Assembly (NCBI GenBank): GCA_001724265.1
Contig: MEDY01000204.1
Coordinates: 1 to 52,366, forward strand
Direction of reading: 5' to 3'
DNA length: 52,366 bases
DNA from: Rhizaria sp. SCN 62-66
Taxonomy: Eukaryota
Part shown: piece by piece, positions 7,889 to 42,524 of the stretch
Numbering within the stretch: position 1 is the stretch's first letter
Layout: every line of letters starts with the position of its first letter
Notes under the pieces: generated by a model
The model's database searches: none
What the model was told of the DNA's origin: nothing
Seen by the model: only the letters and a program-made list of their open reading frames with translations
Program-made: the position numbers and the translations under genes

Positions 7889-9392
7889 ATGATTCGCAAC
7901 CTCTTTATCCTTAGCTCTAGCGGGTACGTCACTTAATAATATACCCTCCCGCTGTAGCCGCCTTCTTTTAAGGCGTGTTTGTCTTTGCCAATCATCTCTC
8001 GATGGCAATGCACGCACACACCCATCTCTATCCAGTAACCCGACTTTCTTTCTCGACTTGTCTCATTCCAATAAGCGCATACAGCGACAGAACTATGTTT
8101 ATCTTAAGCTTAACGATATGCATCACCTCACACAATTGCTCAATTCTTTTACGCGACCCTTTTCACCTTTTCACAGTGAGGTCTTGATCGAGAAGCAGTG
8201 GATGGGCAAGGTCAAGCGCACCGTGTGCGACTTGCTGTGGGAGCACATTTCCCGCGAGACCTCCAAGGCCGACGTGCCCCCGTGCATCGCCACGGCCAAG
8301 TACTTCCTTATCCACATGCAGAAGGGTGATTTGACGTTCCTGACCGCGGTGGAGAAGGACGTGCCGCCGGCGATGGTGCTCGAGGTGCAGACGCTCATCG
8401 CCGACACGCTGGTCGAGTACTTCGGCAAGGTGACTGAGCCCGTGGTGCGCGACAACTTCTCCCTCATCTACCAGCTGCTCGACGAGGTCATCGACGGTGG
8501 TTTCCCCTTCACCACCGAGATCAACCAACTCAAGGAAATGATCGTGCCCCCGTCGATCGCGAACAAGGTCATGGGCGCTCTTTCTTCTTCTTCTTCCTCG
8601 CAGGTCAAGGACGTGCTGGCGAGCGCAGCCATGAGCAAGATCCCGTGGCGCCGCAACGACGTGCGCTACGTCTCGAACGAGATCTTCTTTGATATCATTG
8701 AGGCGCTGGACGTGACTATCGCGGCGGACCAGAGCCTGGTCTCGGCGCAGGTCTACGGCGAGATCCGCTCGCGCTGCCACCTGTCGCACATGCCCGACGT
8801 GATGCTAACGTTCGAGCAGTCGCACCTGCTCGAGGACTGCACGCTGCACCGCTGCATCCGCATCGCACGCTTCAAGCAGGACCGCGCAGTGTCGTTCGTG
8901 CCGCCCGACGGCGACTTCACGCTCATGACGTACCGCGTCAACGGCATCCAGCGCATCCCCATCTACGTGCGGCCCGAGTTCGTGTGGAACAAGGAGTCGT
9001 GCAAGTTCACTGTGGCCATTGGACAGCAGGGCCACCTCAACACACCGCTGCAGGACGTCGTCATCATCGTCCCGCTCCCCGCCGCCACGCAGAACAGCCA
9101 GATCACCGCCACCGCGGGCACTGTGCGCGTGGACCAAGTCAGCAAGACGTGCCGCTGGGAGCTCAAGACGCTGCCCAAGGAGGGCGTGCCGCTGCTCGAG
9201 GGCACCTTCTACTTCGCCGCCAACGCGCAGGCCGAGGAGCGGCCCACGATCCGTGTCATGTTCGAGATGCCCAAGTTCTCCGCCACGGGCATCAAGGTCG
9301 AGAACATGTCGATCAAGAACGTCAAGTACACGCCCGAGAGGGGCGTGCGTACGGTCACTAAGGGCGGCAAGTTTCACGTCCGCACCGCGTGA
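7889..9392 (+). CDS. AP3M: AP-3 adaptor complex mu subunit, 416 aa; exons 7889-7923, 8177-9392
   Basis: Spliced N-terminus MIRNLFILSSSG|EVLIEKQW; DNFSLIYQLLDEVIDGGFPFTTEINQLKEMIVPP; IPWRR..VRYVSNEIFFD; SFVPPDGDFTLM; C-terminus TKGGKFHVRT. Confidence 0.9.
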
Positions 9393-20885: not shown

Positions 20886-23800
20886 ATGTCAGCTCAGGAC
20901 CTCGCCGGCAGCGACAAACACGGCCCTGCACCGCCACCACTATTTTCTGGTTCGATAGCTGGCTTTGTAAACCCGTTTGCACCGACGCAATTTAGCGGCG
21001 CGCCGGGTGCGAATGTTTATGAGCCTAACGGCGGCTCGTCGGCGCATGTTTTGAGGTCTTTCCCTGTGACGCCCGTTGCATCTGCCGCAGGTGTGCTAGG
21101 AGCAGCGCTACCGCCGTATAACCCGTTCGCACCACACAGCAGCATGGTGGGCGCGACAAAACTTTCCGTTAGCAACCCCTTCGTGTCAGGATCCCCCTTG
21201 CCAGGCCAGTTCCCTGCTCCTCACACAGTGCCTGTTGCGGCGTCCACAACCACCACCGCTGTAAACGCGAGTGCGGGCGCGGGCGCTAACGTCAGGACCG
21301 ATGCTAGTGCTGGTAGCCGGGCGGTGATAGAGCCGCAAACGCTTGCGTTCAGCCGTGCGCCGGGTCCCCGCCCCTCTACTACGATAGGTGGGCCGAGAGA
21401 GGCACAGCAATGGCAACAGCTCGAGCAGGACCATGAACGAACCCAGAGGCGTGGCCACGGTCACGGCCACGGCCACAGCTGTCACGGGAACGGGCACGGC
21501 CACGTGCCTGCGGCGGCTTTGTTGCAGGCCCATGGGCAAGACCACGATCCCAGTCTGGGGCTGGAGCAAGGTCCGGGTCCCCTTGCCGCAAACAATGCGA
21601 ATAAAAACGGGTTAAGCATGCCTAACGCTAACGCCCGCAGCCACAGCCACCATTACAACCCTTCTGCCCACAGCCTCTCTGCCACCCCTGCGGCGGCGAC
21701 GTCGAGCGTGACGGCGCTGGCGGCGGAGCTGCTCCCGGCACAGCTCTCCGCGCTGCTGCGCGCGATGCCGCATGCGGCCTCGGCGCTCGCGCGGCTGGCG
21801 GGCTACTTCTTCATCCTCGCCGCGTGGGTCATCCTCGCCGCGTTCATCGTGGCTTACTTCACCGCAATCATCCCCGCGCTCGGCGCGACGCCCTTCAAGG
21901 GCACGCTCATCCTCGCCCCTCTCGCCCCTGTGGCAGCAGCATCAACAGCAGCAGCATCAGCAGTGGCGCAAACTTCAGGCACGGACAGCGTGTTGGCGAC
22001 TGCGGTTACGCTCACCGCGGCGGCGCGCGCGCTGCTGTCTGCGCTCAGCGCTCTGGGGGTGCTGCCACGGTCGCTCGCCGACGTGCCCGACCACCCGGCC
22101 CGGGGGCGGCTTGACTTCGAACGCCTGCCGAGGCGGCTTATTCTCGAACCCGCGCCTAACCAACACGCAACAGCAAACGACAGCGATGACAGCGTCAATG
22201 ATGCGAGCACGCGCGCTCTCATGAATCCAGCGAGCCCTTCTGCTGACGGTCTCAGGAGTGTTGTGTGGTTCGACTTGAATCTCGTGTCAGTGTCGATGCC
22301 ACCCGACTCCGACACTGAGAGCGGCGCTGACTCGCATGCTGGCAGTGGCATGGGCGCGGAGACGAGCGCGAACGCCGGCGCTGGCACAGCCTCGTCGTCA
22401 CCGTCAACGTCACCGTCGTCGTCGTCGTCGCTTCACGTGGAGGTTAACCCCAGCTGGGTGATGCTCGCCATATACGGCCTCTACCTCTGGGTGACTGTCG
22501 TCTCGAGCCACGCCGCCGCCGTCTTCGTCCGCCCCGGCTCCGCGCCGCGCGACGCAGACGCCAGCGCCGGCCGCTTCCTCGCCACGCTCCTCCGCCGGCT
22601 GCGGCACGGGGGCGCATCGCCCGCATCCTTAGACGACGGGGTAAGTAGCGCGGTGGCCGCTGATGCGAGGGGTGCGAACGCGCGGTCGCACCGGCTAAAT
22701 ACCCCCTTAGACGGCTCCGGCGCGACGACGGCAGCGAGGCCGCCGCTGCCCGCGCCCGTGTGCTTTAAGTGCCCGCTGCCGGTGCAGGCCGCGCGCGTAG
22801 CTCTGCCCGCCACCGGCGTGGCCGCCAGCTCCGCGAGTGCGAGCGCGAATGCGAGCGCGGGTGCTGAGGAAACTGATGCTGCGGCTGCTGCTGTTGCCAA
22901 GGCTGCGGCAGTGGTTACCGCGAAGGCCGTGCAGCACCACCAAGCGGTGCTCAAACAGCAGCAGCACCGCCTCTTCTCGCTGCCCTGCAGCAACAGCAAC
23001 GGCGACTGCCACGGCGTCAGCGGCAGGGATAGTACGGTGAGCGACACGGGCGCGATCGTGAGCGCGAGTGGACACGGGCTGTGGTCGCATCAGTTCGCCG
23101 CGGCGCTGCTGCAGGACAGCGGAACTCACATGATGTCGCGGGAGGTGCTTACGCGGGACTTCTCGGCGCTGCTCGACGCGGCGGCGGGCTCATCGCAGTA
23201 TAAGAGCCTACTGCAGCCCACGGTCGTCGCCGCCACCGCCACGGCTGCACCTGCCCAGAGTGGCGGCGAAAGCGCGCCTGCGGCTACTGTGAACGGCGTC
23301 GTGCTGCCGCCCTCAGTCACGTCAATGACGCTCAGGTCGCTTTTGCTGACGCAGCGCGACAGCGGCACCACCGCGAACATGAACAGCAACAACTCCAACA
23401 CTGCAAGCCACGCCCAGCTCGCTCACTCTAATGTTACCTCTGCGCACGGCGTCGCGGTGTCGCCGCACGCGATGGCTCTGCTGGCGTCGTTCGCGCCCAA
23501 GCCGCCGCGTGCACACCACTGCTCCGTGTGCAACGCGTGTGTGGCGCGCATGGACCACCACTGCCCCTGGCTGGGCACCTGCGTCGGCCGGCGCAACCAC
23601 CGCTTCTTCGTGCTGCTGCTGCTTTGGGTGACCGTGGGCGCGGGCTACATTATCGCGCTCGCCACGGGCGTCATGATGGCGCAGGAGCCCCGCGCGGTGC
23701 AGTGGGGCGGCGTTGCCACGGTCGCCGTGCGGCTAAGTGTCGCGCAGAATCTAAGTACCGACGCGGATCGAAGTACCCCGCATGGCGTCGACACGGTTGG

Positions 23801-25457
23801 CTTCAGCAAAGACGGAAGTCTGAGTGAATCGAATAAGCTTGTTACTCATGAGGATCGCGGAAGTATTTACAATAGTTTTGGAGTTGGTTTGTTGGCAATG
23901 CCTACCGACTTCATCACTGCACCTGCCAGCTTGACTGTAACTGTGCCTGCTAGCGTAGAGGCGGCGTCTGCGGCGACAATGGGCACGGCAGACACTGGAG
24001 AACCCGTGGCAACTCCATCCGCCCCCAACACTAACCAGCAGCTGGGCGGCATGGGCGTCTTTTTTCGATCCAGCAGCGCGATCGTGTTCTGCGGCGTGAT
24101 GGCGGCGTCGTTCGGGCTCGGCGTTAGCTGCTTGCTGCTGCTGCACGTCTTCCTTGTCTGCACTGCGCGCACCACGTTGGAGCTCTTCTCGGGCATCGGC
24201 GTCAAGCTCAGCCGCCGCCGAGGGGACGACGCGGACGGTGAGCACCACCACAACAACAGCGGCGGCAGCAGCAGCGACAGCGGCATCAGCGGCGGCGGTG
24301 CGCACGGGCGCTCTTTGGCGCTCGACAGCGACTCGGAGAGCGACGCCGGCAGCGACGACTTCGACGGCAGCGCCAGCGACGACGACTATGATTATGCCGA
24401 TGACAACGACAACGGTGACGCTGAGTCTGGCGAGAGCATTCGTCTTGCGAACGGCAACGGCGTTGCGCTAGTCGGTGACGGTGGTAACGAGGAAGACGAA
24501 GAGGACGGCGTCGCCGTCACTGACAAGACTCGCTTCCTCTCCTCTTCAGTCGCTGCCGCCCCCCGAGACAGCAGTCAGCTTTGTCGCCCACGCTCTCGGT
24601 CTTGGTCTCAACGGCGCTCTCACCGTGACAGCGATCTCTGTCGCCGACTATGCCCGGTCTGGCTGCCGCGGCTCCTGCGCCGCTGCGCGCGCCGACTGCC
24701 GCTCTTGCGCCGCTTCGCCCCGCAGCCGTCGCCCTACGACCGCGGCGGCGTCGTGCGCAACCTCGAGATCGTCTTCGGCGCCCCCTACGCGCTCCCGCCG
24801 AAGTTAAGTCGCGTGCTGGGCATGGACAAGAGCGGCGGCGAGGACAGCCGCGTTCGGAGTAGCTACGGCTACAACAAGCGCGACGCCAGTGCGAGTGCGA
24901 TGCGCGGCGACGCAGAGAGTGTCATCAGTCGCCCTCGTCGTCGTCATGATCGTCATCCCTCCTCTCACGGCAACGCTCTGCTCGCGTCCCCGACTCAGGG
25001 TCCGTACCGGCGCCGCCAGTCCGCGCGCCCCTCAGACGCTTCCGCGCCGCCCGCGCAGCAGCTGGCGGCGCAGCGGCTGCGGCGCTGGTCTCTCGCGGCC
25101 GGCCGCTGGCTGCGCGCGCTGTGCGCTGTGGCGCTGATCGCACTGGGCACGCTGGCGAAGTGGGGCGTGCTGGGCGGGCCCGCAGTGCTCTGGGCCGCGG
25201 AGCTGCCGCTGCCCTTCGAGGGCGAGGACGCGGACGCGGACGGGGACGGCGACGGGGACTGGGAGCGCGACGGCAGTGACGGCACAGCTGCTGCTAGCAC
25301 GAGCGCGGGTGCGAGCGCGAGCGCGAGTCCGAGTGCAAGTGCTGTTGCGGCTGCCGGTGTGGGCGCGGAATCCTGGGTGGGGCTCGTACATGCGCACTTG
25401 CTGCAAGGGACGCTGCCGACCGAGGCGCCGCGCAATGCCGTTAGGCTCCGCAGCTGA
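20886..25457 (+). CDS. DHHC-type protein S-acyltransferase with large low-complexity expansions, 1523 aa, single exon
   Basis: [37 protein letters not shown]; four flanking TM segments; TTxE motif (RTTLE); PaCCT-like [17 protein letters not shown]. Confidence 0.92.
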
Positions 25458-26020: not shown

Positions 26021-28777
26021 ATGCCGTACTTCTCGGCGAACATCTCCGACGGCCTTCTGTTCTCGCAGAAGCTCCTGTGCGATCGCTTCGGTCCGTCCCC
26101 TCCCCTCCCTTCTTAGTTATCATTGTTCCTTGGAATCTATCATCCTTCTCCGAATTCCCCAGCGTGTGCCTCTCACTGCCGCTCACCAAGGTTACGTTGC
26201 CTCTTCTGCTTCTCCTTTTTCCTGTATTCTTGCGTCTTTTCACGCTGACACACTCTCACATACACTCCTAACGCACTACACTCATGATACAGAGGCGGCT
26301 GCTTCCAACGCGTTCGAGGCCGTCGAGGTGAGCCAGCCCTACGACCTGCCGATCTCGGAGCTGGTCGCGCTGCTGACCAACGAAGAGACCGTGGGCACGG
26401 ACGCGCTCGACTGCGCCATGATCGAGACGCACCTCATGCACTCGTCGTCTTCGCGCCCCGGCTACATGGGCTACGCTGCCGTGCCGGGCGCCGAGGAGGC
26501 CTTCGACCGCTCCCTCACCAACACCTTCGCCTACGCGCGCGCGCTCAACTGCAAGACCATCTCGGTCCTCGTCGGCGTGCCCACCCTTGCGGGCCCCATC
26601 GCGCTTCCCCAGGACAAGCCCCTCGCGGCCGCCAACAGCAACGGCAACGGCAGCGGCAGCGGCAGCAACAGCGGCGTGCCCTCGCTCTCGAGCATCTCGC
26701 TCACCTCCCCGGTCCCCGTGACGTCCGCCTCTAGCAGCGGCGGACACCCACATGGTGTCAACAGCAACAGCAACTCGAACGACCTGGGTTCCCCGGCCGA
26801 CTCCCCGCTCGACTGCCTCATGTCGCCCTCGGCGCCCGCCGCCTCCGCGGCCACCTACGCCGCCACCGGCTCGGCCGCGCTCGGTGTCGCCGCCCTGCTC
26901 TCCCCGGTCAACGCCGCTGCTGACGGCAGCAACACCTGCGCCGCCGAGGCCCCCGCAGCCGCGCTGGCGTCGCCGTTCGTCGGCCCCGAGGCCGCGGCCG
27001 CCGCGCTGGCCGCCGCATCGGCCCCCGCCGCGCTGGCCGCCGGCGACGGCAAGACGCGCGACCTGTGCGCGCGCCTGCTGCCGCCGCACCTGGTATCTTT
27101 CCTCGCCAACGCGGGCGTGCACTCGACGCACAGCACGGGGCTTACGCAGGACCAGTCGGCGCTGTGCCCGTCCTCGGTCGCCGGCGCCGCGGCCTTCACC
27201 ACGCTCGTCGCCAACCTCAAGCGCGCCTCGGCCCGCGCCAAGGCGGAGCTGCCGCCTGACGTGTCGCTCGTGCTCGAGGTCGTGTCCGACGTGCCCGGCT
27301 ACTGGCTCGACTCTATTTACAAGGCGCTCCGCGTCATCGCGCACGTCGACGCGGACAACGTTGGGCTCCTCTTCGACTGCTTCCACATCCAGCGGTACGC
27401 AAACAGTAAAGAAAAGATAAATATCACAGTAGTTTGATCATGTGATGTTATTTTTATGTGTATTGTATCTATGTATGTTCATCAATGTGTTTTATTCTCA
27501 CTATGAGCTCTTTGCTTTGTGCTCTCCATGTTGTTCTGTCGTTCCCAGCCTGCACGGCAACGTGACTGAGCTGCTGCTGGGGCTGCTGCCGCTGGTGCGC
27601 CACGTGCAGGTTGCCTCGGTGCCGCACAAGCGCGAGATCGACCGCGGCGAGCTCAACTACATGTACGTGCTCAAGCAGCTCGACCGCAGCGGCTATCAGG
27701 GTTGGTGTGGGCTCGAGTACGTGCCCACCGACGGCAAGACGAAGCAGAACCTGAACCCCTGGTTCGCGTCCTTCCAGCGCAAGCGCCACGGGTCTGCGGG
27801 CGTGCTGGTGGCGTGCCTGGGCAAGCAGGGCAAGCCGTACCTGCTGCTGGGCGAGGACCACAAGAAGGGCCACCTGTGGGGCCCATTCTGGGGCCGCCCA
27901 GACAAGACGGATAAGGGCGTCGAGCACACGGCGGTGCGCGAGACGGTTGAGGAGAGCCTGGGCGTGCTCGCGCACCCCAGCGTGCTGTATAACGCGCTCA
28001 AGCACGTTGACTTCCACGTCAAGCTGCCATCGGGCGCGCTCTTCCTGGTCACGCTGGGCGTCATGTCCGAGTCGGAGCGCGAGGCCGTCGTTGATAAGTA
28101 CCGCGCCGCGCGCGACCAACAGGCCGCGCTGTCCAAGTACCAGCGCGAGATGACCGATGTGCGCTGGGTCGACGCCACAGAGCTGCTCCGCACGCTCGTC
28201 CTCAAGAAGAAGCCTCAGGTACGCATGATAGTAAAGTCACGGTCAAGTCAATGTCAACATAAGCAATGCCATAATCACGCAATTTGCAATATTTCGCTCA
28301 GATCGCTCTGGATGGTACTTAATGTGTGATGTTTTGCGTGTTTTTGTCTTTAATATCTTTTATGAGTCATGATTGATGCAAAGTGCTTTCCACTCACTTT
28401 CGTTGTTTTTGGTCACTTTTTGCGCAGGAGGATGCCCCCATCAAGCTCCGCACTTTCTTCAAGTACGTGTATCTTCTTTTGGAATTCAAGACGGGCACAA
28501 CCAACATACTCATACGTATTTGTCTTTTTATCGCTCCAATTCAATATGTAAATCGTCCTGCCTCACTCTTTTCCTTCTGTCACCCTTTGTTTCACTCTGC
28601 TCGCTTCCCTCACCGCCCCGCTTGCAGGCGCGACCTGAGCAACGCGATGGAGAACATGGCGATCGTGCGCAACTTCTGCGAGCGCAAGGGGCTGCCGATC
28701 CGCCCGCTGGCCGAGATGACGGCCGTGGGGCCCGTGCAGGGCGCGCCCTCCCCGCTCACCGCCGTCATCACCGCAGC

Positions 28778-28828
<51 letters not shown>

Positions 28829-28856
28829 GGCGGCGGCGGGCGCCAAGCGCGCGTAA
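26021..28856 (+). CDS. Hydroxypyruvate isomerase (Hyi/xylose-isomerase-like TIM barrel) fused to a NUDIX hydrolase domain, about 701 aa; exons 26021-26090, 26293-27394, 27549-28218, 28428-28462, 28628-28856
   Basis: Hyi part: MPYFSANIS...DRFEAAA...FEAVE, LVLE, LLFDCFHIQRLHGN, HVQVASVP...GELNY, GYQGWCGLEY. NUDIX part follows in the same exon: SAGVLV...LLLGED...WGPFWG...TAVRETVEESLG. Total spliced length is 2106 nt, divisible by 3. Confidence 0.88.
28779..28829 (+). repeat. (CAG)n tract encoding Q17 at the C-terminus of the Hyi-NUDIX protein
   Basis: Direct reading; one CAA interruption. Confidence 0.95.
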
Positions 28857-31398: not shown

Positions 31399-34300
31399 TT
31401 AAAAGAGCCACGTGATCATCTGCCCGGCGGCGTCAGTCGACCACGCGCGCACCCGTACAGAGCGCCTCTTCGACTCGCCAGCAACTGGGTGGCTAGATGC
31501 ATGTGAGTCTGCGCTCTCTTTGGATGGTGGGGCGAACGAGGCCCACGTCTGAGGCGGAATAAACGCTCTTAATAACGCGCTGAGACGGTCGCTCTCATTC
31601 TTCTCACCGCTATTCGAGTTGCTACACGTGAAAGTCTGGCCACTGGAAGAGTTCGAGATTATTGTGTTGTTGGTAAGATCACCGCTGGTAAGCGCTAAGC
31701 AGAGGGACACCGGCTTTAGCACCAACGCGGTAGGCTCCTGGGACCGAGAGTGGCTCTCAGGCTTGGCGCTACACGCAGCAGCAGGGGCTTGCTCGAGGCG
31801 CAGCGTAGCTACAGCGCCGCGAGTGAGCGAGTAGATGACGCTGACGCAGCAAGGATCCTTGGACAGGTTGCAAGTGGTAGAGCTGTTCGTACGAGTCGGG
31901 CAGTCGTGCTTGTGCACAGTGATAGCGGCCTTGTAACCCACAGCAACAATGCAATCAGCACCACTCTCGTGATCGCTGCAACGGTCGCTAGCGCCACTGA
32001 TGGAGAGAGGTAGTGCACAGACAGCAACCTCAACGCGCTTGTTGACGCCGCAGTCCGCGGTTTGAGCGCCTCCACGCAGGTGCTTCGAGACCAGAACAGC
32101 GATCTCGTGGGATAACCAGTGTGACAAGTCTAACCTTGAGTTCTCAGCAAGAGCCACGGTCTCAGCACCAGCAATAGCTACAGCAGAGTTGTCGTGCTGT
32201 CGACATAGAGCGCGCCTAACGTCATGAGCAGAGAAAACGCGTAAGCAGCCGTCTAATGACGTTGTCACTAATGAACAAGCATCGGTTGCGCTGTTCAAGT
32301 TAGTCGCAGTTGACGTCTTAGCAGGAAGTGTGAGAGCGGAAATCACTGTCGTCTTGTGCCCCTTGAGTACAACACGGCGCAGGACTGTCAGACTCTCGTC
32401 TGATGGGGTATTTTTACCAGGCTTCGGGGCGTACAAAATGCTCGCGTAACACGGTGAATGGGCGACCCTGCAAGCGGTGACTCCACTTTGGCGGCTCGTG
32501 TTGTGAACATTTTTGATCCTAATGAAAGGCGAAAGAATATCACTAGCTTTATCGTCATTGGGGGAATGGGCAATCGGTTGGGGTGACGAGTCGGAAAGAA
32601 TGCTGAGCAGCATATTGGCGCCAGTGCCAACACCTAGTTCGCCGATACCACTGCCATTTCCGTCATCACAGTCACTATCATTGTCACTCTCGTTGTCAAC
32701 GTGACCACTGTTCGCGCTGCTCACATCATCATCGCCTTCGTCAGTGGCGAGCGCGTTGCCGCCGCCCCACACCAGCAGCGCAACACTACTGCTGTCAGCA
32801 GCAGTATCGTGTTCGCGATTCGGCGTAAACGGCGAAGTCAGTGTCAGCATGCCGCGAATAACTGCAGGTGTCCCTAAGAAATCCCCTGCAGCCGGCTCCG
32901 GTGACAAAGATTTGATTTTGTCGGCGCTGTCACGACTCCCATTATTATGACTGTTGTTGACACGGTAGTCGTTATTGACGGTGAACGGGGCACATGTGAG
33001 TACTTGCGAGTTGAGCACATACTCATGGCCACTCTCGTACTTGGACACAGACGATGAACCTGCGCTCGACTGCTCTTTGGTCGCGCTGGAGCTGAGTCGC
33101 GAGTGCTTTGGAAGGGCGCCCCACAGCGCCTGGACGCAACCAGCAGAGAGCTTGTTCACTGTCGCCTTTTTTGCAGTCACCATGTCGCCCACAGTCACTT
33201 GTTTGCTGTTGTTGGCAGCAATCATGTTGTTCGGAGAGTTATCACGGCTCTCAGCCGTGTATTGGGTTAGCTGCATTGGCCTCAGTGTTAGGGGACAAAT
33301 AAGATGAATGAATCCCAGAGCATCACCGGCAAATGTGACACTCTTGGGAACAACCTGACGCACAACACTATCAGAGGCAGACACAGTGGGAATGTCATGA
33401 GCGGAAGCAACAGAAAAGCGGTTACCTGCCAAAGCAAGCGGTGTGGATACTGACGCTGAAGATGAGAACGACAGAGGCTTGAAGTTGCATGTAAGTCCTT
33501 CGACATCGCCGTCTTGTTCAATACCGTCGTCGTAAAACGAGTTGCTTGCAGGCAGCAGGGGAAGAGATGGCTTGTACAGCTGCATACGAGGGTACTTGAA
33601 CGCCATATCGCGCATAACCAACGTGTAAAGCCAGCCACGAGTCACGATCTCACGCGTTTTAACCCCAGAACAAAGATCCGTGACAGGATTAGCAACACAA
33701 GCACTATTAGCAAGATTGCAATCGATATGGGCGCCCTTGTTTTGGTAGTATGAAGGCATAGGATTTGTCACAAGGTCCCAATAAGAAGGCTGTTGTTGAG
33801 CGAGCAAAGTCGTTACTGGCACAGGCATGCCTTCCATAAACTCGCTCTCTGCACCCTCGCCATCCTTACCGTCGTTTTCGCCATCGCTTTTGGTTTCGCC
33901 ACCGGCGTCGTCAGCTGTCAATGCCATCGTAACCGTGAGCGGCACCGCCACAGCCGCGCTGCCGCCGCGGTCGCCCCGCCACACACGCACAGTGCCGTCC
34001 AAGCCTGCGGAAAACAGCAGCAAATCTAAGGGCCCATTGTGAGCCTCAATCTCTGAATTCGTTTCATCCTTCATGGCATCGCTGCTAGGATAGGCGCAAA
34101 GCGCAGTCACGGGCCCGCGGTGGCCGCGGAAGGTGGCCATGTGGCGGCCCAACCTCAAACCGGAATCTGAAGACGTGATAACACCACTAACTGCGCTGTC
34201 GGTCGATGTCGGACGATGACAGATTGAGGTCGAGACCGTGCAGCTAGCCTTTAGGTCGAGTTTGGGGCCAGAATGGGGCGACAAATCCCAGATCTTGATC

Positions 34301-37300
34301 GAATGATCGGATGAGCCAGTCGCAAACAGCACCGGTGATGCCAAGGACGAAGACAACTGTGGCAATCGAGGAAGTGCTGCAGTTGCAGTGATGTCGTGTG
34401 AGTGGGCAAGGTTAGGCCGCCTAGCAACGTAGCGGGAGAGAATCTCTGCGCGTTCTGAAAAAGTCGGCGCCGCTGGTTGGGAGCCATCTTTCTCATCAGA
34501 GTCAACCGCTGCAACATCCTCTTTGATACCAGTGTCAGTGGTGCTGATGTTAGTCGTGTCGCTGGTATTACCGGCGTTGCTAGTACGCCTGGTTGCAGTA
34601 TTATTGCGTGACACAGCCCCCGGCTTCGCGCTGGCGCTGTTGCTGTTGTTTGTGGGAATGCGAATGACGCTGCCACTACGCCGCACAGCGCTGGTGCTTC
34701 GAGGGGCAGTCTTGGTGCTCGCAGAAGCTGCATTCGAATCGATGCCGCTGTTGCCAGGGGCCGCAGCGGCACCAACCGAGGGAGAGCGTCCCCTTTGCTG
34801 AGTGAGTCCTTGTTGCCGACCTTCACTCCCATCACCAGCGCCAGCGCCAACGCTGCGCCTTCCCATTCGCAGTTGCTGCTTCTCGTCCTGCTGCTGTTGC
34901 TGCTGTTTGGCGTCGAGCTCCTGTTGCTGCTGCAGGTGCACAAGCAGGGCCTCGAGCTGCTTCTGCTGCTGCTGGCCCTGCGAGCCGCGCCACAACCCCG
35001 CGCATGCGTAGTGGTGCTCAGCGGCGTCGCGGCACACCAGCAGCGACGACGCCTGCTGCGACAAGACGGACTGCGACTGCAGGCAAGCGGGTGGCTGTGA
35101 GGGCGTCGGGGCGTTCTCCTCGGGTGTCGTGATGACTGTGCGCACGAGAGAGCCGTCAAGACCGGCCGAAACAACTACGACGCCTGTGTCACGCTGTTGT
35201 TGCGGGAATGTCATCAATTCCGTTGAGCAGAGCGGCGACTGAGAGAGCGCCACCGCAACGCCGCGCCACGCTGCGGAGCCCTCAGAGAGGCTAACTGCGC
35301 CGGAGTGGGCAGAACGAACGCCGGCCGGCGACGCTTCACTCCGGGGCGCAACAGTGACGAGCACGTTCGCCAGCGCAGACGGCAGCACCCTCACAGCCCC
35401 GCCAAGGCCCACGCCCTGGGACGCCCTCAGCGCGCGGTGGTTGAACGCGTTGTAGGGCCCGAGCGTGTCCGTGAGCGAGGCCGCCACCGTGCGCAGCGCG
35501 TGCCGGATGAGCGCGGCCGTTACCGCGGGCACCGACGCGGGCGCCGCGCCCGGGCCGCCAGCGCTGGTAGAGGGACACAGCGGCGCAAACAGCGATGACA
35601 ACGCATGCTGCTGCGCGGCGCGAATGTGGTCGTCGAGTGGAAAGCGCGGGGGCCGCGACCGCGGGAGGGTGATGAGCGACGACGAGGCCGCTTCCGATGG
35701 GCCGCCGGGGGCTGGACGGTTTTGAGCAGCAGAAGAACTGTGGGCACAAACCAGTGCGGCCGAGTCAGCTGACAGCGTTTCCGCTGCGCTTGCGTTGCTG
35801 CTTCCATTGGTGTTAGCGACGAGGGTCGCGATCGTGACTGTGAGCAAGACGGTCTGGTCGTTTTCATCCTCGTCCTCGCTATCACTCTCGCTGCAAAGAG
35901 AATCGCGTGACTGCGGGTCAGTACTCGTAAGACTAGAAGGCACTCGCGACGGCGTGTCGGGATACTTGGACGGCGGTTTGATATAATCAGGAGTTGATCC
36001 CAATTCTTTCCAACGAATGTCATCGTCGTACCCCTCAGCCGCAACGGAAGTTAAGCCTCCGACCCTCACACCGGGTAACGCACTCTGATTGACCACGGTG
36101 GCCGTGCGCGCGCTCACGCTGCCGCCGGAAGTTGCGGTCCAGACGCGCCGGCCCCGCGCAATGCCGCCGAAGCCACGGAAATCCACGTTCGAGCAGTTTG
36201 CAACGACAAAACTATGACTGTCTTTCGAAGCTGCGTTCTTGCCGTCGCTCGATAACTGAGAGTTCGTTTTGACTGCGGCCGCAACCGGTGGCATCGTCGC
36301 GGGCGTGAGCGCCGCCGCTGGCGGTCGCAGCATCGACTCACTGAAGTACCGGTGGTTGCTCGCCAGCAGCGCGATGCGTGCCGCGCTGGGCGACTGCGCG
36401 CAGCCGGGCGGCAGCGACGCCGCAGCCGAGGGGGACGCAGCAACGCTGCGTTGTCGGGTGCGGAAGTTAAGCCGCGCAGCAAGCGCGGCAGTCGTCGCCG
36501 CGGGACCTAAAAGATGCGAATCAAACATATGGCAGCAAAAAAACACGAGCAAACATTATTAGAGATTTCATAGAATTCTTGTGAAGACAAAATAATTGTC
36601 CGAGACAGGATCTAAGAATATAGTATTGAATACGCACCTTGAAAGCACTCTTCGACGCCGTTTGCAACCATGTACGCGCGTTGCTGTCTGTAGGCAAACT
36701 CTGCGACGGAGGCCTGCTCCTGGTCGTATGCAGCCAAAGCAGCGGCGACGGTGGCATCGGTGGCGCGCTGATGCGCAAGTTGCTCAGGGGTAAACGCCGC
36801 AGCAGCCGACGCATTGGCAGTAGCCGTAGTTGCGACGACAGTCTCACTAGACTTTGTGATCGAATGAGTGCTCGAGATTGTTGTGTTACTGAGCAGGACC
36901 ACTTTCTCTGCTGAACCCGTTGTTGCCGCAGATACAAACGCAGCTGACGCCGCACTAGCAGCCACGGAGGCAGCAGCAGCAGCAGCTGCTGCAGTCGCTG
37001 CCGCAACAGGGGTGCCAGCGTTGGTGGCGCCGCCGGGGGTGCTGATGTCTGTGAGGGCCACTGGCGTGCTTACACCACCATCCGATGTGGCCCCCATCGA
37101 TAGAGACACGCTCAAAACGACCGGTGCAGTCACGCTAATACTCGGTGTGCATGAGCTCTCGCTGGTGGCGCTAAGACTAGCGTTCTTGACGCAGGGGTCG
37201 GACACCGAGCCGAGCGCAGCAGCGACGGCGTAGTTTCTCGGTCTCGTAGCGCCACTCAGAATGCCGGCAACAACAGTGGTAGAAGCGGTCGGATCCGAGG

Positions 37301-40300: not shown

Positions 40301-42524
40301 CGCCAGACTGCAGGCGCGTGTGCTGCACGTCGCTAGCTCCGCCGGTGCTGGAGGCGCTGGCGCTGGCACTCGCACCAGCAGCAGCAGGAGCAGCAGCAGC
40401 AGCAGCAGTAGTAGTAGCAGTAGCAGTGATATCGTTGCTGTTCGTGACAACGTGGTTCGCGCTGTTGCTGCTCGTTGTGCTACTAGATGGCGCTGACGCA
40501 AGCACCTTGTCGACAAAAGCGCCGATCTGGGCGTCGTTGGTTGTGTATGTGTTAGACCCGTTGGGCAGAGGTGCCGACGGAGGGCGCGCGACGAGGGGCC
40601 TCGTCAGGCTCGCGCCAGCAGTGCTCGGCCTGGCGTCGCCCGCAGCCGTGTTGCGCCCCTTGGAGCTGTTAGGATGTGGCTTTGCCGAATGTGTCTGTTG
40701 AGACTGCAACTGGGATTGCTGCTGCGGCTGGGACTGGGCCAACTGGGCCTCGACCCACAGGCGCGTCCTCGGACTCAGCGGCCGGCTGAATCCACTGCTT
40801 GCAACGCCGCCGCCGACAGCGCCGCCACTGATGCGGCCAGCGCCTGCATTTGCACCCGCAGCACCTGCACTATCACTGACATTGACAGTTGTACTATGCT
40901 TCTTGTGAACGCTAGCGTCGCTCGTGTTCGTTTTGGTGTCGGCTGCGCTCGTCGCGGGCGTCGCGGCCGTCGCGGGGGCCGGGCTCGCGCGGCCCTCCTG
41001 GAGCAGCGCGGCGGCTGTCGCAGCAGCGGCGCGCTGGTAGTACGAGAGCGAGGCAGACGCAGAGGCCGGGCGGGGCGGCACGGGAACCAAGAGCTTGCTC
41101 TGGCCCTCTCCTTGCCCCTGTATCGAATGCGACTGAGGTTGCGCGTGGGGCTGGGAGATGTGTGGCTTTGGCTGCTGCGGTAAAGCGTTACTCCCGGAAA
41201 CGCCGTTCGCACTCGCGCTCGCGCTGGCGATCGAGCTTGCGCCCGTGCTTTGCGCGCTCGCAGCGAGCGCGGACGACAGCGAAAGCGCTGGCACCACGAG
41301 CCGCCGCGACCGGTGCCGGCCGACCGTGCTGCTCACGGCCGCTTCGGGGGCCGGGCGGGCGCTCGCGGCCGTGTGAGCAGTCGCTTGGACAGACGCAGTG
41401 CTGGCCATCGCAACGTCTGTCGCGCCAGGGACGGCAGCAGCGGCAGCAGCTGTGTTGTGCACCGAGGCAGTGGTGTTGCTGATGCTGTTGGGGGGAGTAC
41501 TAGCAGTGCTGGTGCTCTGAAGAGAGTGTGCGGGGTTATTGCGCAGAGGCAGGTGGGTGTGCGAGACAACGCGGCGGGGCGGGTACGCTGCGACACCGAC
41601 ACCGCCCGCGCCCGCAGCGGCGCCCGCGCCCGCAGCGGCGCCCGCGCCCGCAGCGGCGCCAGCGCCCGCGGCAGCGGATGCGCCTGTCTTGTCATCCGTC
41701 ACCGAGGCTGGCGTGGAGACAGTCACGGCGCCAAGAGCAGCGTTGTTGGTGACATTGCCGCTTGCACCCGCGTGCGTGGCTGTGCTCTTTGTTGTTTCAG
41801 CTGCCGTTGTCACGGCTTGCTTCGTGGCAGCTGCCGCTGCCGCGGCTGCCGCAGTGGGCGACGTCGACAGCGTGAGCTGCCGGTGCTTGTGGTGCGGCCG
41901 TTGCGCGCCCCAGTCGCCACCAACGCTCTGTGCTGGCGCCTGCGTCTGTGCCTGCGTCAGCGCCGACCCTGGCTGTGCCTGTCCCTGCGCCAGCGAGTGA
42001 GACTGCGCCAACGACTACGGCGGCGAGTGAGTCTGCGACAGAGACGACTGGGGCGGCGCGGGCGGGGACGGAGGGTACGCGTAGAGCTGTGTTTGTGGCG
42101 GCGGCGGCGGTTGCGACTGCGACTGTGAGAGGGCCTTGGTGGTCGCCTGCTGTGGCGGCACTGCTGGTGAAGCTGCTGAGGCAGCTGCTGCTGCAGCTGC
42201 TGCTGCAGCGTCTGCGCCGCCGATCCGCTGCGGCGTGGGGACAGAACAAGTGTCGTTAGCGTCGGCGTTCAGCAGCAGTTCGGGCGGTTGGTGTGCCGAT
42301 GATGTCGTCGCGGCCATAGCAAGCGCAGGAGACGGCGGCGCCGGCGAGAGTGACGTGGGCGGGAGCGAAGGCCCGAACAGAGCTCGTGGCGAGGCGCTGA
42401 ATCCCGCCCGCACCCCTGCCTCAGAACTAGCTCCGCCAAGAGTAACCTGTGGTGGCGCAACAGGGCGCATCGTAGGAATAGAGTCCGACGGAAAATGAGA
42501 CCTACGGGATGAGGTCCCGCTCAT
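31399..42524 (-). CDS. Very large low-complexity protein with a C-terminal dispersed WD40 propeller, about 3660 aa; exons 42524-36638 (in-frame TAG at 42017-42015) and 36506-31399
   Basis: A GTGCGT..TAG intron at 36637-36507 joins the two long ORFs in frame. WD motifs: SAGLDGSL, AH...FATGSSDHSIKIWDL, RGHRGPVTAL...FSAGLDGTVRVW, LKGHKTTVIS...TTSLDGCLRVF. The start is uncertain. Confidence 0.75.
39336..39370 (-). repeat. Hexamer repeat (CTGGCT)n encoding a Gln-Ser dipeptide run
   Basis: ctggct units in tandem; protein reads SQNQSQSQSQSQ. Confidence 0.85.
41603..41677 (-). repeat. 18-bp coding tandem repeat, about 4 copies, encoding (AAAGAG)n
   Basis: gcccgcgcccgcagcggc is repeated. Confidence 0.85.

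What the first reader, a model, noticed from the sequence alone, without database searches (positions are those of the whole stretch)
26021..28856. Hydroxypyruvate isomerase-NUDIX hydrolase fusion
Seen: a complete Hyi-type barrel with both catalytic-position glutamates (LVLE, CGLEY) and DxFH runs without a stop or intron into a NUDIX domain within one exon. The NUDIX box at 27892-27963 is a variant, G-x5-D-x8-RETVEE-SL-G. Known: Hyi/OtnI proteins are normally stand-alone isomerases of about 260-280 aa acting on small keto-acids or sugars, and NUDIX enzymes cleave NDP-X substrates. I do not recall this architecture. Inference: a bifunctional salvage or metabolite-repair enzyme, for example releasing a sugar or acid from an NDP conjugate and isomerising it.
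Basis: partly seen in the sequence, partly recalled or inferred. Interest (0 to 1): 0.75.

Follow-up and report, generated by a model that had tools for sequence, protein, structure and literature searches.

The report
Isomerase barrel fused to NUDIX hydrolase
A eukaryotic gene encodes one protein that joins a hydroxypyruvate-isomerase-like barrel to a NUDIX hydrolase of a type otherwise seen mostly in giant viruses; the fusion is real and conserved in a few relatives, but what it acts on is unknown.

Summary
A five-exon GT-AG gene on the + strand (26021-28856, 701 aa) encodes a complete Hyi/OtnI-type TIM barrel. The barrel is split by two introns and a 202-aa low-complexity insert. Inside exon 3 it runs through a five-residue basic linker into a NUDIX domain (Pfam above cut-off; AlphaFold pLDDT 92.7; Foldseek probability 1.0).

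It is a clade signature, present in 15 of 16 relatives.

The fusion is not an artefact. Eight other database proteins span the junction, and the NUDIX halves of the fused proteins form one clade (98/95). Both halves have the same extreme GC3.

The coupled "release and isomerise" idea lacks support:
- The NUDIX module plus a conserved basic tail (exons 4-5) also occurs without a barrel, in other proteins and in amoeba-associated bacteria. Its best structural matches are giant-virus NUDIX proteins.
- Four of seven fused relatives have lost barrel catalytic residues, while all keep RExxEE.

My reading: a two-domain enzyme in which the NUDIX half is the constrained activity and the barrel is still intact in this lineage. 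Substrates are unknown. I found no paper on it. A bacterial cluster with the same two Pfam domains exists, as a lead only. It is moderately interesting: a new variant of known kinds.

The parts
26021..26090 (+). Exon 1. Start codon and first barrel strand (MPYFSANIS...). No N-terminal extension or targeting peptide.
   Evidence: In-frame TAG sits directly upstream of the ATG and a GT donor follows. The product aligns to positions 1-22 of my Hyi profile without a gap across the splice junction.
26091..26292 (+). Intron 1 (202 nt, GT-AG, phase 1, GC 0.495)
26293..27394 (+). Exon 2. Barrel positions ~23-184, including the insert.
   Evidence: Pfam AP_endonuc_2 38.6 bits against cut-off 31.1. NCBIfam OtnI 70.8 bits and Hyi 62.0 bits. 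PDB 1k77 and 3ngf match.
26583..27188 (+). 202-aa low-complexity insert (47 Ala, 33 Ser) between profile positions 108 and 110 of the barrel
   Evidence: Inserts of 86-424 aa lie at the same site in 5 fused relatives; P0009 has 10 aa there.
27267..27284 (+). LVLEVV, holding the first catalytic-position Glu (E352)
   Evidence: Aligned to the 'liEPln' of stand-alone Hyi-like proteins.
27372..27392 (+). FDCFHIQ, the DxxH motif (D385, H388)
27395..27548 (+). Intron 2 (154 nt, GT-AG, phase 2, GC 0.338)
   Evidence: If it were retained, the frame would stop at 27435-27437.
27549..28218 (+). Exon 3. Holds the last ~76 barrel residues, the linker and the whole NUDIX fold in one open frame.
   Evidence: Residues 2-76 match PDB 3ngf (E 2.6e-13) and 1k77 (E 2e-11).
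27598..27618 (+). RHVQVAS (H409, Q411)
27709..27726 (+). GLEYVP, holding the second catalytic-position Glu (E447)
27778..27792 (+). Conserved basic linker R-K-R-H-G between the barrel end (..WFASFQ) and the first NUDIX strand (SAGVLV)
   Evidence: Alignment: R-[KR]-R-x-x-SAG in 6 of the 7 full-length fused relatives; P0009 differs.
27778..28218 (+). NUDIX domain (aa 468-614)
   Evidence: Pfam 25.0 bits against 21.1. AF2 pLDDT 92.7. Foldseek hits in PDB and BFVD. It is the only match in the window's six frames.
27892..27963 (+). Variant NUDIX box GRPDKTDKGVEHTAVRETVEESLG (G-x5-D-x8-RE-x2-EE-x2-G)
   Evidence: The variant is present in 15 of 16 family members and the canonical box in 0 of 16. 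NUDT7 has the same spacing.
28147..28167 (+). EMTDVRW. Its Glu (E591) and Trp (W597) are invariant in the NUDIX-only alignment.
   Evidence: E124 and W130 of the 147-aa segment are invariant in 10 sequences.
28219..28427 (+). Intron 3 (209 nt, GT-AG, phase 0, GC 0.383)
28428..28462 (+). Exon 4 (35 nt). Encodes EDAPIKLRTFF(K), the start of the conserved basic tail.
   Evidence: Matched by P0001 EDFQLKLRPFFR and by the KLRxFF motif in the relatives.
28463..28627 (+). Intron 4 (165 nt, GT-AG, phase 2, GC 0.455)
28628..28856 (+). Exon 5. Holds the rest of the tail (RDLSNAMEN...FCERKGLPIRPLAEM, to 28718), then a low-complexity poly-Gln end and the TAA stop.
   Evidence: The tail is 64% identical to P0001 and 51% to P0002.
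28773..28829 (+). GCA/CAG trinucleotide repeat (19 copies) encoding the poly-Gln run near the C-terminus

Best explanation
This is a genuine, conserved two-domain enzyme gene of a eukaryote with spliceosomal introns.

Shown:
- One 701-aa polypeptide with no targeting extension.
- Its first 467 residues are a complete Hyi/OtnI-type (beta/alpha)8 barrel, interrupted by a disordered-looking 202-aa insert. The barrel keeps E352, D385/H388, H409/Q411 and E447.
- A five-residue basic linker then leads straight into a 147-aa NUDIX fold that keeps R521-E522-x2-E525-E526.
- A ~42-aa conserved basic tail (KLRxFF[KR]R...) follows. It belongs to the NUDIX module, not to the fusion.

Inferred:
- The NUDIX half is an active divalent-metal-dependent diphosphatase acting on a nucleoside-diphosphate-X compound. 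It belongs to an uncharacterised clade shared by protist-like eukaryotes, giant viruses and bacteria that live inside protists. It is the evolutionarily constrained core activity.
- In this lineage the barrel is still a working keto-enol (1,2-proton-shift) isomerase for a small alpha-hydroxy-carbonyl acid, such as hydroxypyruvate/tartronate semialdehyde or 2-/3-oxo-tetronate.
- The barrel's link to the NUDIX half is physical, as a scaffold, an oligomerisation unit or a ligand-binding partner on a very short tether. It is not an obligatory second step of one pathway.

I rank a small NDP-X metabolite as the more likely substrate class and an RNA 5' end as second. Neither is shown.
For: Gene model and open frame.

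Barrel completeness and residues:
- One search gives 218 bits over profile positions 1-260 of 262.
- Searches match PDB 3ngf and 1k77.
- One search gives OtnI and Hyi as the best NCBIfam families.
- One search shows the conserved residues in alignment.

NUDIX half:
- Pfam is above cut-off.
- The AF2 model has pLDDT 92.7.
- Foldseek finds 67 PDB matches with E<=1e-3, topped by NrtR, Dcp2 and NUDT16 at TMq 0.44-0.53.
- Foldseek finds 75 BFVD matches with E<=1e-3, topped by Pithovirus, Pandoravirus, chlorovirus NY2A B457L and Marseillevirus NUDIX proteins at E 2.5e-10 and TMq 0.67-0.74.
- The ESM Atlas top three clusters for the NUDIX part are all Nucleocytoviricota, score 0.96.

Fusion conserved and of single origin:
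- 8 non-self junction-spanning proteins.
- Their NUDIX halves form one clade, 98/95.
- GC3 is 0.905-0.956 in every part of the gene and 0.75-0.93 in neighbouring ORFs, so neither half looks recently acquired.

NUDIX is the constrained half:
- RExxEE is kept in 7 of 7 fused relatives, while 4 of 7 (P0003, P0004, P0007, P0009) lack at least one barrel residue.
- Barrel profile scores fall from 218 to 84, 59, 45 and 26 bits.
- In those four, NUDIX identity to the window (36-51%) exceeds barrel C-half identity (25-34%).

NUDIX module is autonomous:
- There are barrel-less relatives, including one tandem duplicate.
- 11 bacterial ORFs carry the module without a barrel.

Variant box is compatible with catalysis: the CoA diphosphatase NUDT7 has the same spacing.
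Against: - No transcript or protein evidence was available, so splice sites rest on GT-AG, phase and homology only.
- The Pfam NUDIX score is only 2-4 bits above the cut-off.
- Activity of either half is inferred from residue conservation alone.
- The Glu of G-x5-E is Asp, and the box carries two extra residues.
- NCBIfam equivalog cut-offs for Hyi and OtnI are far from met. Orthologues score 162 and 151 bits against 325 and 353. The barrel's substrate may therefore be neither of the two named.
- In the two nearest relatives the barrel C-half is at least as conserved as the NUDIX half (83 against 80%, 60 against 51%). In this lineage the barrel is under strong constraint, which also fits a coupled pathway.
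- The better TM-scores to viral models may partly reflect comparing a predicted structure with other predictions.
- No viral sequence could be put in the tree.
- Whether the two domains touch could not be tested.
Confidence: 0.55

Rival explanations
1. Coupled salvage or metabolite-repair enzyme. The NUDIX half frees a small sugar or keto-acid from a nucleotide conjugate, and the barrel on the same chain then isomerises it.
For: - Both catalytic motif sets are intact here and in P0001, P0002 and P0006.
- The linker is only five residues long and is conserved.
- The barrel C-half is as conserved as the NUDIX half among the nearest relatives.
- The fusion is ancient and of single origin.
Against: - 4 of 7 fused relatives keep the fusion and the NUDIX residues but have lost barrel residues.
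- The NUDIX module works in contexts without any barrel.
- No NDP-linked form of a Hyi or OtnI substrate is known to me (recalled, not searched).
Confidence: 0.2
2. RNA 5'-end hydrolase acting on an m7G cap or a NAD/metabolite cap, of the Dcp2, NUDT16/X29 or viral-decapper kind. The barrel would be an accessory or regulatory domain.
For: - Dcp2, NUDT16 and X29 are among the best PDB fold matches.
- The closest structural relatives are giant-virus NUDIX proteins, and some NCLDV NUDIX enzymes decap mRNA (PMC8478210: abstract and passages read).
- Conserved basic patches flank the fold: RKRH, KKK and KLRxFFKR.
Against: - TMq to Dcp2 and NUDT16 is only 0.44-0.53.
- The BFVD entry named M7GpppN-mRNA hydrolase ranks 49th with TMq 0.45, while the top viral hits are uncharacterised.
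- PMC8478210 itself separates the decapper L375 from a second mimivirus NUDIX (L534). It describes L534 as resembling uncharacterised NUDIX proteins of giant viruses, bacteria and protists, which matches the distribution seen here.
Confidence: 0.15
3. The NUDIX domain is a non-catalytic ligand sensor, as in NrtR, the TRPM2 NUDT9-H domain or TIRR. It would control the isomerase barrel.
For: NrtR with bound ADP-ribose is the top PDB fold hit. TRPM2 and TIRR also appear in the list.
Against: - R-E-x2-E-E, and a downstream Glu that is invariant in the 10-sequence NUDIX-only alignment, are kept across the family.
- It is the barrel that decays, not the NUDIX half.
Confidence: 0.06
4. Annotation or assembly artefact: two neighbouring genes read as one, or a chance open frame in GC-rich DNA.
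For: GC-rich DNA here does give long spurious ORFs on both strands, for example 26268-27386 (-) at 372 aa with no Pfam family.
Against: - The junction lies inside one exon, with no stop and a five-residue linker.
- Eight other database proteins have the same junction.
- Both halves hit curated families.
- GC3 is uniform at 0.90-0.96.
Confidence: 0.02

Closest known systems
Hydroxypyruvate isomerase Hyi (TIGR03234) and 2-oxo-tetronate isomerase OtnI/YgbM (NF043033; PDB 1k77; Brucella homologue 3ngf)
   Same: - The same barrel, covered end to end.
- The same E / DxxH / HxQ / E positions.
- OtnI and Hyi are the two best NCBIfam families for the window pieces and the orthologues.
- OtnI's role in L-threonate catabolism is as summarised in bioRxiv 10.1101/2025.05.18.654769 (passages read).
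   Different: - The known enzymes are stand-alone proteins of ~260 aa.
- This one has a 202-aa insert after profile position 108 and a C-terminal NUDIX module.
- Its scores are less than half of the equivalog cut-offs, so its substrate cannot be transferred from them.
Uncharacterised NUDIX proteins of giant viruses (BFVD: Pithovirus LCPAC101 A0A481Z2P7, Pandoravirus neocaledonia A0A2U7UDQ7, chlorovirus NY2A B457L A7IWY2, Marseillevirus LCMAC202)
   Same: - They are the best structural matches: E 2.5e-10 to 6e-9, TMq 0.67-0.74, 18-24% identity.
- The three nearest ESM Atlas clusters are Nucleocytoviricota, score 0.96.
   Different: - The viral proteins are stand-alone or differently extended (157-370 aa) and none is reported with a barrel.
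- None has a tested function.
- No viral sequences were available here for a tree.
Human NUDT7, peroxisomal CoA diphosphatase (PDB 5qgg, 5t3p)
   Same: It is the best PDB hit of the family profile (E 1e-4). It has the same unusual box spacing G-x5-D-x8-RE-x2-EE.
   Different: - The upstream NuCoA motif is absent in 16 of 16 family members (the motif was recalled from PROSITE).
- The alignment covers only ~50 residues around the box.
Dcp2, NUDT16/X29 and NrtR NUDIX domains
   Same: Same fold. They are the top PDB Foldseek hits, with probability 1.00.
   Different: - TMq is only 0.41-0.53 and identity 13-20%.
- No Dcp2 regulatory domain or NrtR winged-helix domain is present.
Bacterial 'TIM barrel protein' cluster with PF01261 + PF00293 (ESM Atlas, 429 aa, 72 members, Bacillota)
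   Same: The same pair of Pfam domains sits on one chain in all members.
   Different: - The feature score of 0.82 is a lead only.
- No sequence was returned, so the barrel subfamily, the domain order and any kinship are unknown.
- No such protein appeared among the best 150 phmmer hits.
Other NUDIX fusions such as NadM-Nudix and the TRPM2 NUDT9-H domain (recalled, apart from the TRPM2 hits)
   Same: They are precedents for a NUDIX domain welded to another enzyme or to a channel.
   Different: The partner domains are different. None involves a Hyi/OtnI barrel.

Membership tests
Hyi/OtnI isomerases (TIGR03234, NF043033) | Full-length (beta/alpha)8 barrel matching the family profile end to end | tested here: met
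   The spliced protein matches positions 1-108 and 110-260 of a 262-position profile built from 28 stand-alone hits, at 218 bits and E 5e-68.
Hyi/OtnI isomerases (TIGR03234, NF043033) | Conserved acidic and His residues at the barrel's catalytic/metal site: E in LxxE, DxxH, HxQ, and E in GxEY. The roles of these residues are recalled from the xylose-isomerase-like fold. | tested here: met
   E352, D385/H388, H409/Q411 and E447 all align with the stand-alone proteins.
Hyi/OtnI isomerases (TIGR03234, NF043033) | Score at or above NCBIfam's equivalog cut-off | tested here: not met
   The window could only be scanned exon by exon (OtnI 70.8 and 62.7 bits). The full-length orthologues P0001 and P0002 score 162 and 161 bits (OtnI, cut-off 325) and 151 and 135 bits (Hyi, cut-off 353).
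Hyi/OtnI isomerases (TIGR03234, NF043033) | Isomerase activity on hydroxypyruvate or 2-oxo-tetronate | not testable with these tools
   Needs an enzyme assay.
Pfam AP_endonuc_2 (PF01261) | Gathering score | tested here: met
   38.6 bits against 31.1 on the exon-2 frame. The exon-3 piece alone scores 27.6.
NUDIX superfamily (PF00293) | Pfam gathering score | tested here: met
   22.9 and 25.0 bits against 21.1, a narrow margin.
NUDIX superfamily (PF00293) | NUDIX alpha/beta/alpha fold | tested here: met
   (pLDDT 92.7, pTM 0.85). (Foldseek probability 1.00 to solved and predicted NUDIX proteins).
NUDIX superfamily (PF00293) | Canonical box G-x5-E-x7-RE-U-x-EE-x-G-U | tested here: not met
   The canonical pattern is found in 0 of 16 family members. 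The variant G-x5-D-x8-RE-x2-EE-x2-[GN] is found in 15 of 16. The catalytic RE-x2-EE core is present.
CoA diphosphatases (NUDT7/PCD1 type) | NuCoA motif directly upstream of the box (pattern recalled from PROSITE) | tested here: not met
   0 of 16. Only the box spacing is shared.
ADP-ribose pyrophosphatases | Pro about 15-16 residues after the box (rule recalled from the literature) | tested here: not met
   In the window, Pro lies at +5 and +22 only. A Pro at +15 or +16 occurs in 4 of 15 relatives with a box (P0002, P0004, P0010, P0012).
Dcp2 / NUDT16-type decapping enzymes | Close structural similarity, plus RNA-binding elements and regulatory domain | tested here: inconclusive
   these are top hits, but with TMq 0.44-0.53. 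Accessory elements were not examined. Decapping needs an assay.
Giant-virus-type NUDIX clade (uncharacterised) | Nearest relatives by structure and by sequence features are NCLDV proteins | tested here: inconclusive
   Searches support it.

The most novel reading that the evidence does not exclude
The fusion is a metabolite-gated nucleotide or RNA-end hydrolase. A giant-virus-type NUDIX enzyme is permanently tethered to a Hyi/OtnI barrel that acts as a small-keto-acid binding or gating module. The barrel is still catalytic in this lineage and has become a pseudoenzyme in others. In this reading central carbon or ascorbate/glyoxylate-derived metabolites would control the turnover of a nucleotide-linked signal or of capped RNA in protists. 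Giant viruses and intracellular bacteria would deploy the free NUDIX module to tamper with the same host target.
Probability: 0.12. Interest if true: 0.75.

Novelty: new variant of a known kind. Interest (0 to 1): 0.45.

Why it matters
- It documents a conserved but unannotated domain architecture. Two of the four closest database entries are named only 'hydroxypyruvate isomerase'.
- It links an uncharacterised NUDIX clade, with its own box signature and basic tail, to eukaryotes, giant viruses and bacteria that live in protists.
- If the substrate were found, it would give a function to that whole clade, including viral and symbiont proteins that probably act on a host molecule.
- The family also offers a natural series running from an intact barrel to a pseudoenzyme barrel on the same scaffold.
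- It gives no new insight into a long-standing question as it stands.

Tried and rejected
Tools that were unavailable or gave nothing:
- The listing of cluster members, for names and sources of the homologues: database switched off. The organisms of P0001-P0151 stay unknown.
- The search for related loci with alignment A2: no conserved stretch. I repeated it with the closer set A3.
- Word-indexed searches with the NUDIX part alone (1 hit) and with the NUDIX alignment (4 hits, 3 of them already known) added almost nothing.
- Complex prediction for barrel against NUDIX-plus-tail was unavailable. Domain contact stays untested.
- PHROGs gave no family for 4 proteins.
- Rfam gave 0 matches and tRNA search 0 genes in the window.

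Literature, which found nothing on the fusion:
- 'hydroxypyruvate isomerase' + nudix: 5 papers, none about a fusion (listing only).
- 'hydroxypyruvate isomerase' + apicomplexa: 0.
- 'xylose isomerase-like TIM barrel' + nudix: 0.
- AP_endonuc_2 + nudix: 0.
- The 2-of-4-terms search was badly designed and gave nothing relevant.
- One search showed eukaryotic HYI only in proteomics lists (listing only).

Ideas considered and dropped:
- A WWE-like N-terminus in P0070: Pfam gave nothing at E<=0.1.
- CoA diphosphatase membership: NuCoA motif absent.
- ADP-ribose pyrophosphatase rule: not met.
- A C-terminal W-x-SAP exon downstream of 28700: none in three frames.
- Antisense ORFs 26268-27386, 27469-28119 and 27696-28205 (-): no Pfam family.
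- Recent transfer of either half: uniform GC3.

Not checked:
- InterPro-style architecture counts could not be queried.
- The lineage of the window's organism was not determined.


Full report
**1. What is in the sequence**

The region holds one gene on the + strand. ORF listing and reading of the DNA, followed by scripted splicing, give five exons: 26021-26090, 26293-27394, 27549-28218, 28428-28462 and 28628-28856.
- All four introns are GT-AG, and their phases (1, 2, 0, 2) fit.
- The product is 701 aa, ending at TAA 28854-28856.
- Exons are GC-rich (0.54-0.72) and introns poorer (0.34-0.50).
- The ATG at 26021 follows an in-frame TAG, and the protein starts directly with the first barrel strand.

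**2. The barrel**

Family matches:
- Pfam AP_endonuc_2 hits both large exons: 38.6 bits on the exon-2 frame and 27.6 bits on exon 3.
- NCBIfam ranks OtnI (2-oxo-tetronate isomerase) and Hyi first, but far below their equivalog cut-offs.
- The last 75 barrel residues match PDB 3ngf (E 2.6e-13) and E. coli YgbM 1k77 (E 2e-11). Exon 2 matches the same two chains weakly.

Completeness and residues:
- A profile I built from 28 stand-alone ~260-aa hits aligns to the spliced protein over positions 1-108 and 110-260 of 262, at 218 bits and E 5e-68. This also validates exon 1 and both barrel introns.
- E352 (LVLE), D385/H388 (DCFH), H409/Q411 (RHVQ) and E447 (GLEY) are all in place.
- That these are the catalytic or metal positions is recalled knowledge of the xylose-isomerase-like fold.

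Interruptions:
- Between profile positions 108 and 110 lies a 202-aa Ala/Ser-rich insert (26583-27188).
- The barrel is therefore complete, but it is not contained in one exon as the finding's wording might suggest.

**3. The junction and the NUDIX half**
- In exon 3 the barrel ends at ..PWFASFQ. After R-K-R-H-G the first NUDIX strand (SAGVLV) begins.
- The exon has no stop in this frame, against 7 and 3 in the other two frames.
- Pfam NUDIX scores 22.9 bits and 25.0 bits for 27778-28218 alone. The cut-off is 21.1, so the margin is thin.
- AlphaFold with a 17-row alignment gives pLDDT 92.7 and pTM 0.85, with the expected strand-helix order.
- Foldseek against the PDB returns 67 matches with E<=1e-3, and the matches shown are NUDIX-fold proteins. 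The top ones are the NrtR NUDIX domain with ADP-ribose, Dcp2, and NUDT16/X29, with TRPM2 NUDT9-H and NUDT9 further down. TMq is only 0.41-0.53.

**4. Relatives: the fusion is real, old and rare**

Searches:
- A word-indexed search for longer proteins found 4 hits among 2409 candidates. All cover 81-99% of exon 3. They are 681-1123 aa long and 43-83% identical, and JGI names two of them 'hydroxypyruvate isomerase'.
- The exhaustive phmmer run over 1.84 billion representatives gave 899 hits with E<=1e-3. Most of them match the barrel end only.
- Among the best 150, the proteins matching both sides of the junction are the window's own ORF (P0005) plus P0001, P0002, P0003, P0004, P0006, P0007, P0009 and P0011. 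P0006 and P0011 are fragments.

Properties of the fused relatives:
- My own Pfam scans show both domains in them, though not always above cut-off. NUDIX scores are 19.7, 29.9, 11.8, 23.5, 24.8 and 19.8 bits for P0001, P0002, P0003, P0004, P0007 and P0009.
- In a maximum-likelihood tree of 26 NUDIX modules, the 7 fused ones plus the 166-aa record P0010 form one clade with support 98/95. This indicates a single fusion event.
- Six rows in that tree have long branches. Their placement outside the clade is unsure.

Composition:
- GC3 is 0.905-0.956 in every part of the gene. The four large neighbouring ORFs range from 0.75 to 0.93. Neither half stands out from the other or from the high-GC3 background.

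**5. Which half is constrained**

Alignment of the fused family with three stand-alone barrels gives the following.
- The window, P0001, P0002 and P0006 keep all barrel positions.
- P0003 has lost the first Glu, the His of DxxH and the last Glu (now Asp).
- P0004 and P0007 have lost the last Glu (now Ala and Thr).
- P0009 has DxxH changed to NxxE and the last Glu changed to Asn.
- All 7 sequences that cover the NUDIX box keep R-E-x2-E-E.

Two further measures agree.
- Barrel profile scores fall from 218 bits (window) through 210 (P0001) and 201 (P0002) to 84 (P0004), 59 (P0007), 45 (P0003) and 26 (P0009).
- In those four distant relatives, identity to the window is higher in the NUDIX half (47, 51, 51 and 36%) than in the barrel C-half (34, 34, 32 and 25%). 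In the two near relatives the barrel C-half is slightly the better conserved: 83 against 80%, and 60 against 51%.

So the fusion persists even where barrel catalysis has evidently been given up. In the window's own lineage the barrel is under strong constraint.

**6. The NUDIX module has a life of its own**

The conserved tail:
- Exons 4-5 encode a conserved tail, KLRTFFKRDLSNAMEN..FCERKGLPIRPLAEM.
- A similar basic/aromatic motif follows the NUDIX fold in barrel-less relatives P0012 (two tandem modules), P0015, P0019, P0028, P0031, P0039 and P0070.

Clade signature:
- The variant box is present in 15 of 16 family members. The canonical box is present in none.

Bacterial relatives:
- A scan of one genome per bacterial and archaeal species found 347 pattern matches, of which 11 were confirmed.
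- The confirmed loci come from a Parachlamydiaceae MAG, Rhabdochlamydia, a Chlamydiae MAG, Candidatus Odyssella thessalonicensis, three Alphaproteobacteria/Pseudomonadota MAGs, a Verrucomicrobiales MAG and three Thalassotalea genomes.
- Their ORFs are either ~190-260 aa or very large (967 to more than 1500 aa). Of the four ORFs scanned with Pfam, the two of about 1,500 aa (L002, L008) carry ankyrin repeats.
- None matches the Hyi profile (all E>=0.11).

Giant-virus link:
- Foldseek against BFVD gives much better matches than the PDB. There are 75 with E<=1e-3. The best are NUDIX proteins of Pithovirus, Pandoravirus neocaledonia, chlorovirus NY2A (B457L) and Marseillevirus, at E 2.5e-10 to 6e-9 and TMq 0.67-0.74.
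- The ESM Atlas puts three Nucleocytoviricota clusters first for the NUDIX part, with score 0.96 and 175-179 shared features.
- Comparing a predicted structure with other predictions may flatter the viral scores. No viral sequence was available for a tree.
- The distribution matches a remark in PMC8478210 (abstract and passages read). [quoted passage not shown] Whether L534 belongs to this clade was not tested.

**7. Substrate leads, none decisive**
- The family profile's best PDB sequence hit is the CoA diphosphatase NUDT7 (E 1e-4). Its box has the same G-x5-D-x8-RE-x2-EE spacing, so the variant is compatible with catalysis.
- The NuCoA motif (recalled pattern) is absent in 16 of 16 members.
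- The recalled ADP-ribose-pyrophosphatase rule, a Pro 15-16 residues after the box, is not met in the window.
- The fold neighbours include both ADP-ribose binders and RNA decappers.
- Conserved basic patches (RKRH, KKK, KLRxFFKR) would suit a polyanionic substrate. That is inference only.

**8. Mechanism I commit to (confidence 0.55)**
- It is a single cytosolic polypeptide.
- The NUDIX half, with its tail, is an active metal-dependent diphosphatase of the protist / giant-virus / symbiont clade, and it is the constrained activity.
- The barrel is, in this lineage, still a working Hyi/OtnI-like isomerase.
- The very short conserved tether suggests a fixed two-domain unit. In it the barrel serves the NUDIX half as scaffold, oligomerisation unit or ligand-binding partner.
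- The barrel is not an obligatory second step of one pathway.
- The rivals are an RNA 5'-end hydrolase (0.15), a non-catalytic sensor (0.06) and an artefact (0.02).

**9. Comparison and novelty**
- Both halves belong to known superfamilies.
- The barrel works like Hyi/OtnI but fails the equivalog thresholds.
- The NUDIX half meets the Pfam and fold criteria but not the canonical box.
- The pair of Pfam domains also occurs in a bacterial Atlas cluster (429 aa, 72 members, all with PF01261 and PF00293; feature score 0.82, a lead only). The architecture as such is therefore not unique.
- Four literature searches for the combination found nothing about it.
- I rate it a new variant of a known kind, of moderate interest.

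**10. Surroundings and what stayed open**

Neighbouring ORFs are ordinary eukaryotic genes:
- a P4-ATPase (2322-6866)
- an AP-complex mu subunit (8058-9392)
- a DHHC palmitoyltransferase (20886-25457)
- a WD40 protein (31399-36552, - strand)
- a RhoGEF (43027-45582)

They suggest no functional link. There are no tRNA genes or Rfam matches, and no second barrel or NUDIX copy in the window.

Still open:
- The organism was not identified.
- The sources of the homologues could not be looked up.
- A full-length fold and a domain-docking test could not be run.

Noticed in passing
L002 1750-6396, L003, L008 2116-6393, L004/L005 (bacterial loci): The same NUDIX type sits inside very large proteins (967 to more than 1500 aa) of protist-associated or uncultured bacteria: Candidatus Odyssella, Alphaproteobacteria MAGs and a Verrucomicrobiales MAG. 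L002 and L008 carry many ankyrin repeats at the C-terminus. They look like eukaryote-directed effector-type proteins. Small ~190-260 aa versions occur in Chlamydiae and Thalassotalea.
   Followed up: partly
P0003, P0004, P0007, P0009 (fused relatives): The barrel has lost one or more catalytic-position residues while the fused NUDIX keeps RExxEE. This is a natural series from an enzyme barrel to a probable pseudoenzyme barrel.
   Followed up: yes
P0012 (447 aa): Two tandem copies of the NUDIX-plus-tail module on one chain, with no barrel. The second copy is very divergent (branch length 2.96).
   Followed up: partly
window 26583-27188: A 202-aa Ala/Ser-rich insert in a barrel loop. Inserts of 86-424 aa lie at the same loop in five fused relatives. 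They share a weakly conserved L-P-x-H-L island near window aa 286.
   Followed up: partly
C-termini of P0002, P0003, P0008, P0013: These relatives end in W-x-S-A-P-x, and P0004 and P0007 end in SVSSPM. The window and P0001 instead end in low-complexity sequence. No such motif is encoded downstream of 28700 in any + frame.
   Followed up: yes
window 26021-28856 and neighbouring ORFs: Third-codon-position GC is extreme (0.90-0.96 in this gene, 0.75-0.93 in four neighbouring ORFs), while introns are 0.34-0.50 GC. As a result long spurious ORFs appear on both strands, for example 26268-27386 (-) at 372 aa with no Pfam hit.
   Followed up: yes
window 20886-25457 (+): The upstream neighbour is a single 1523-aa ORF with a DHHC palmitoyltransferase domain at aa 870-934. 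That domain is embedded in very long low-complexity Ala/Ser/Gly-rich sequence.
   Followed up: no
window 43027-45582 (+): An ORF with a RhoGEF (Dbl-homology) domain at E 1.7e-42. Together with the P4-ATPase, AP mu and WD40 genes it marks an ordinary eukaryotic chromosome segment. The lineage of the organism was not determined.
   Followed up: no
window 28773-28829; also 40372-40426: GCA/CAG trinucleotide arrays of 18-19 copies. The first encodes the poly-Gln run at the end of the fusion protein.
   Followed up: no
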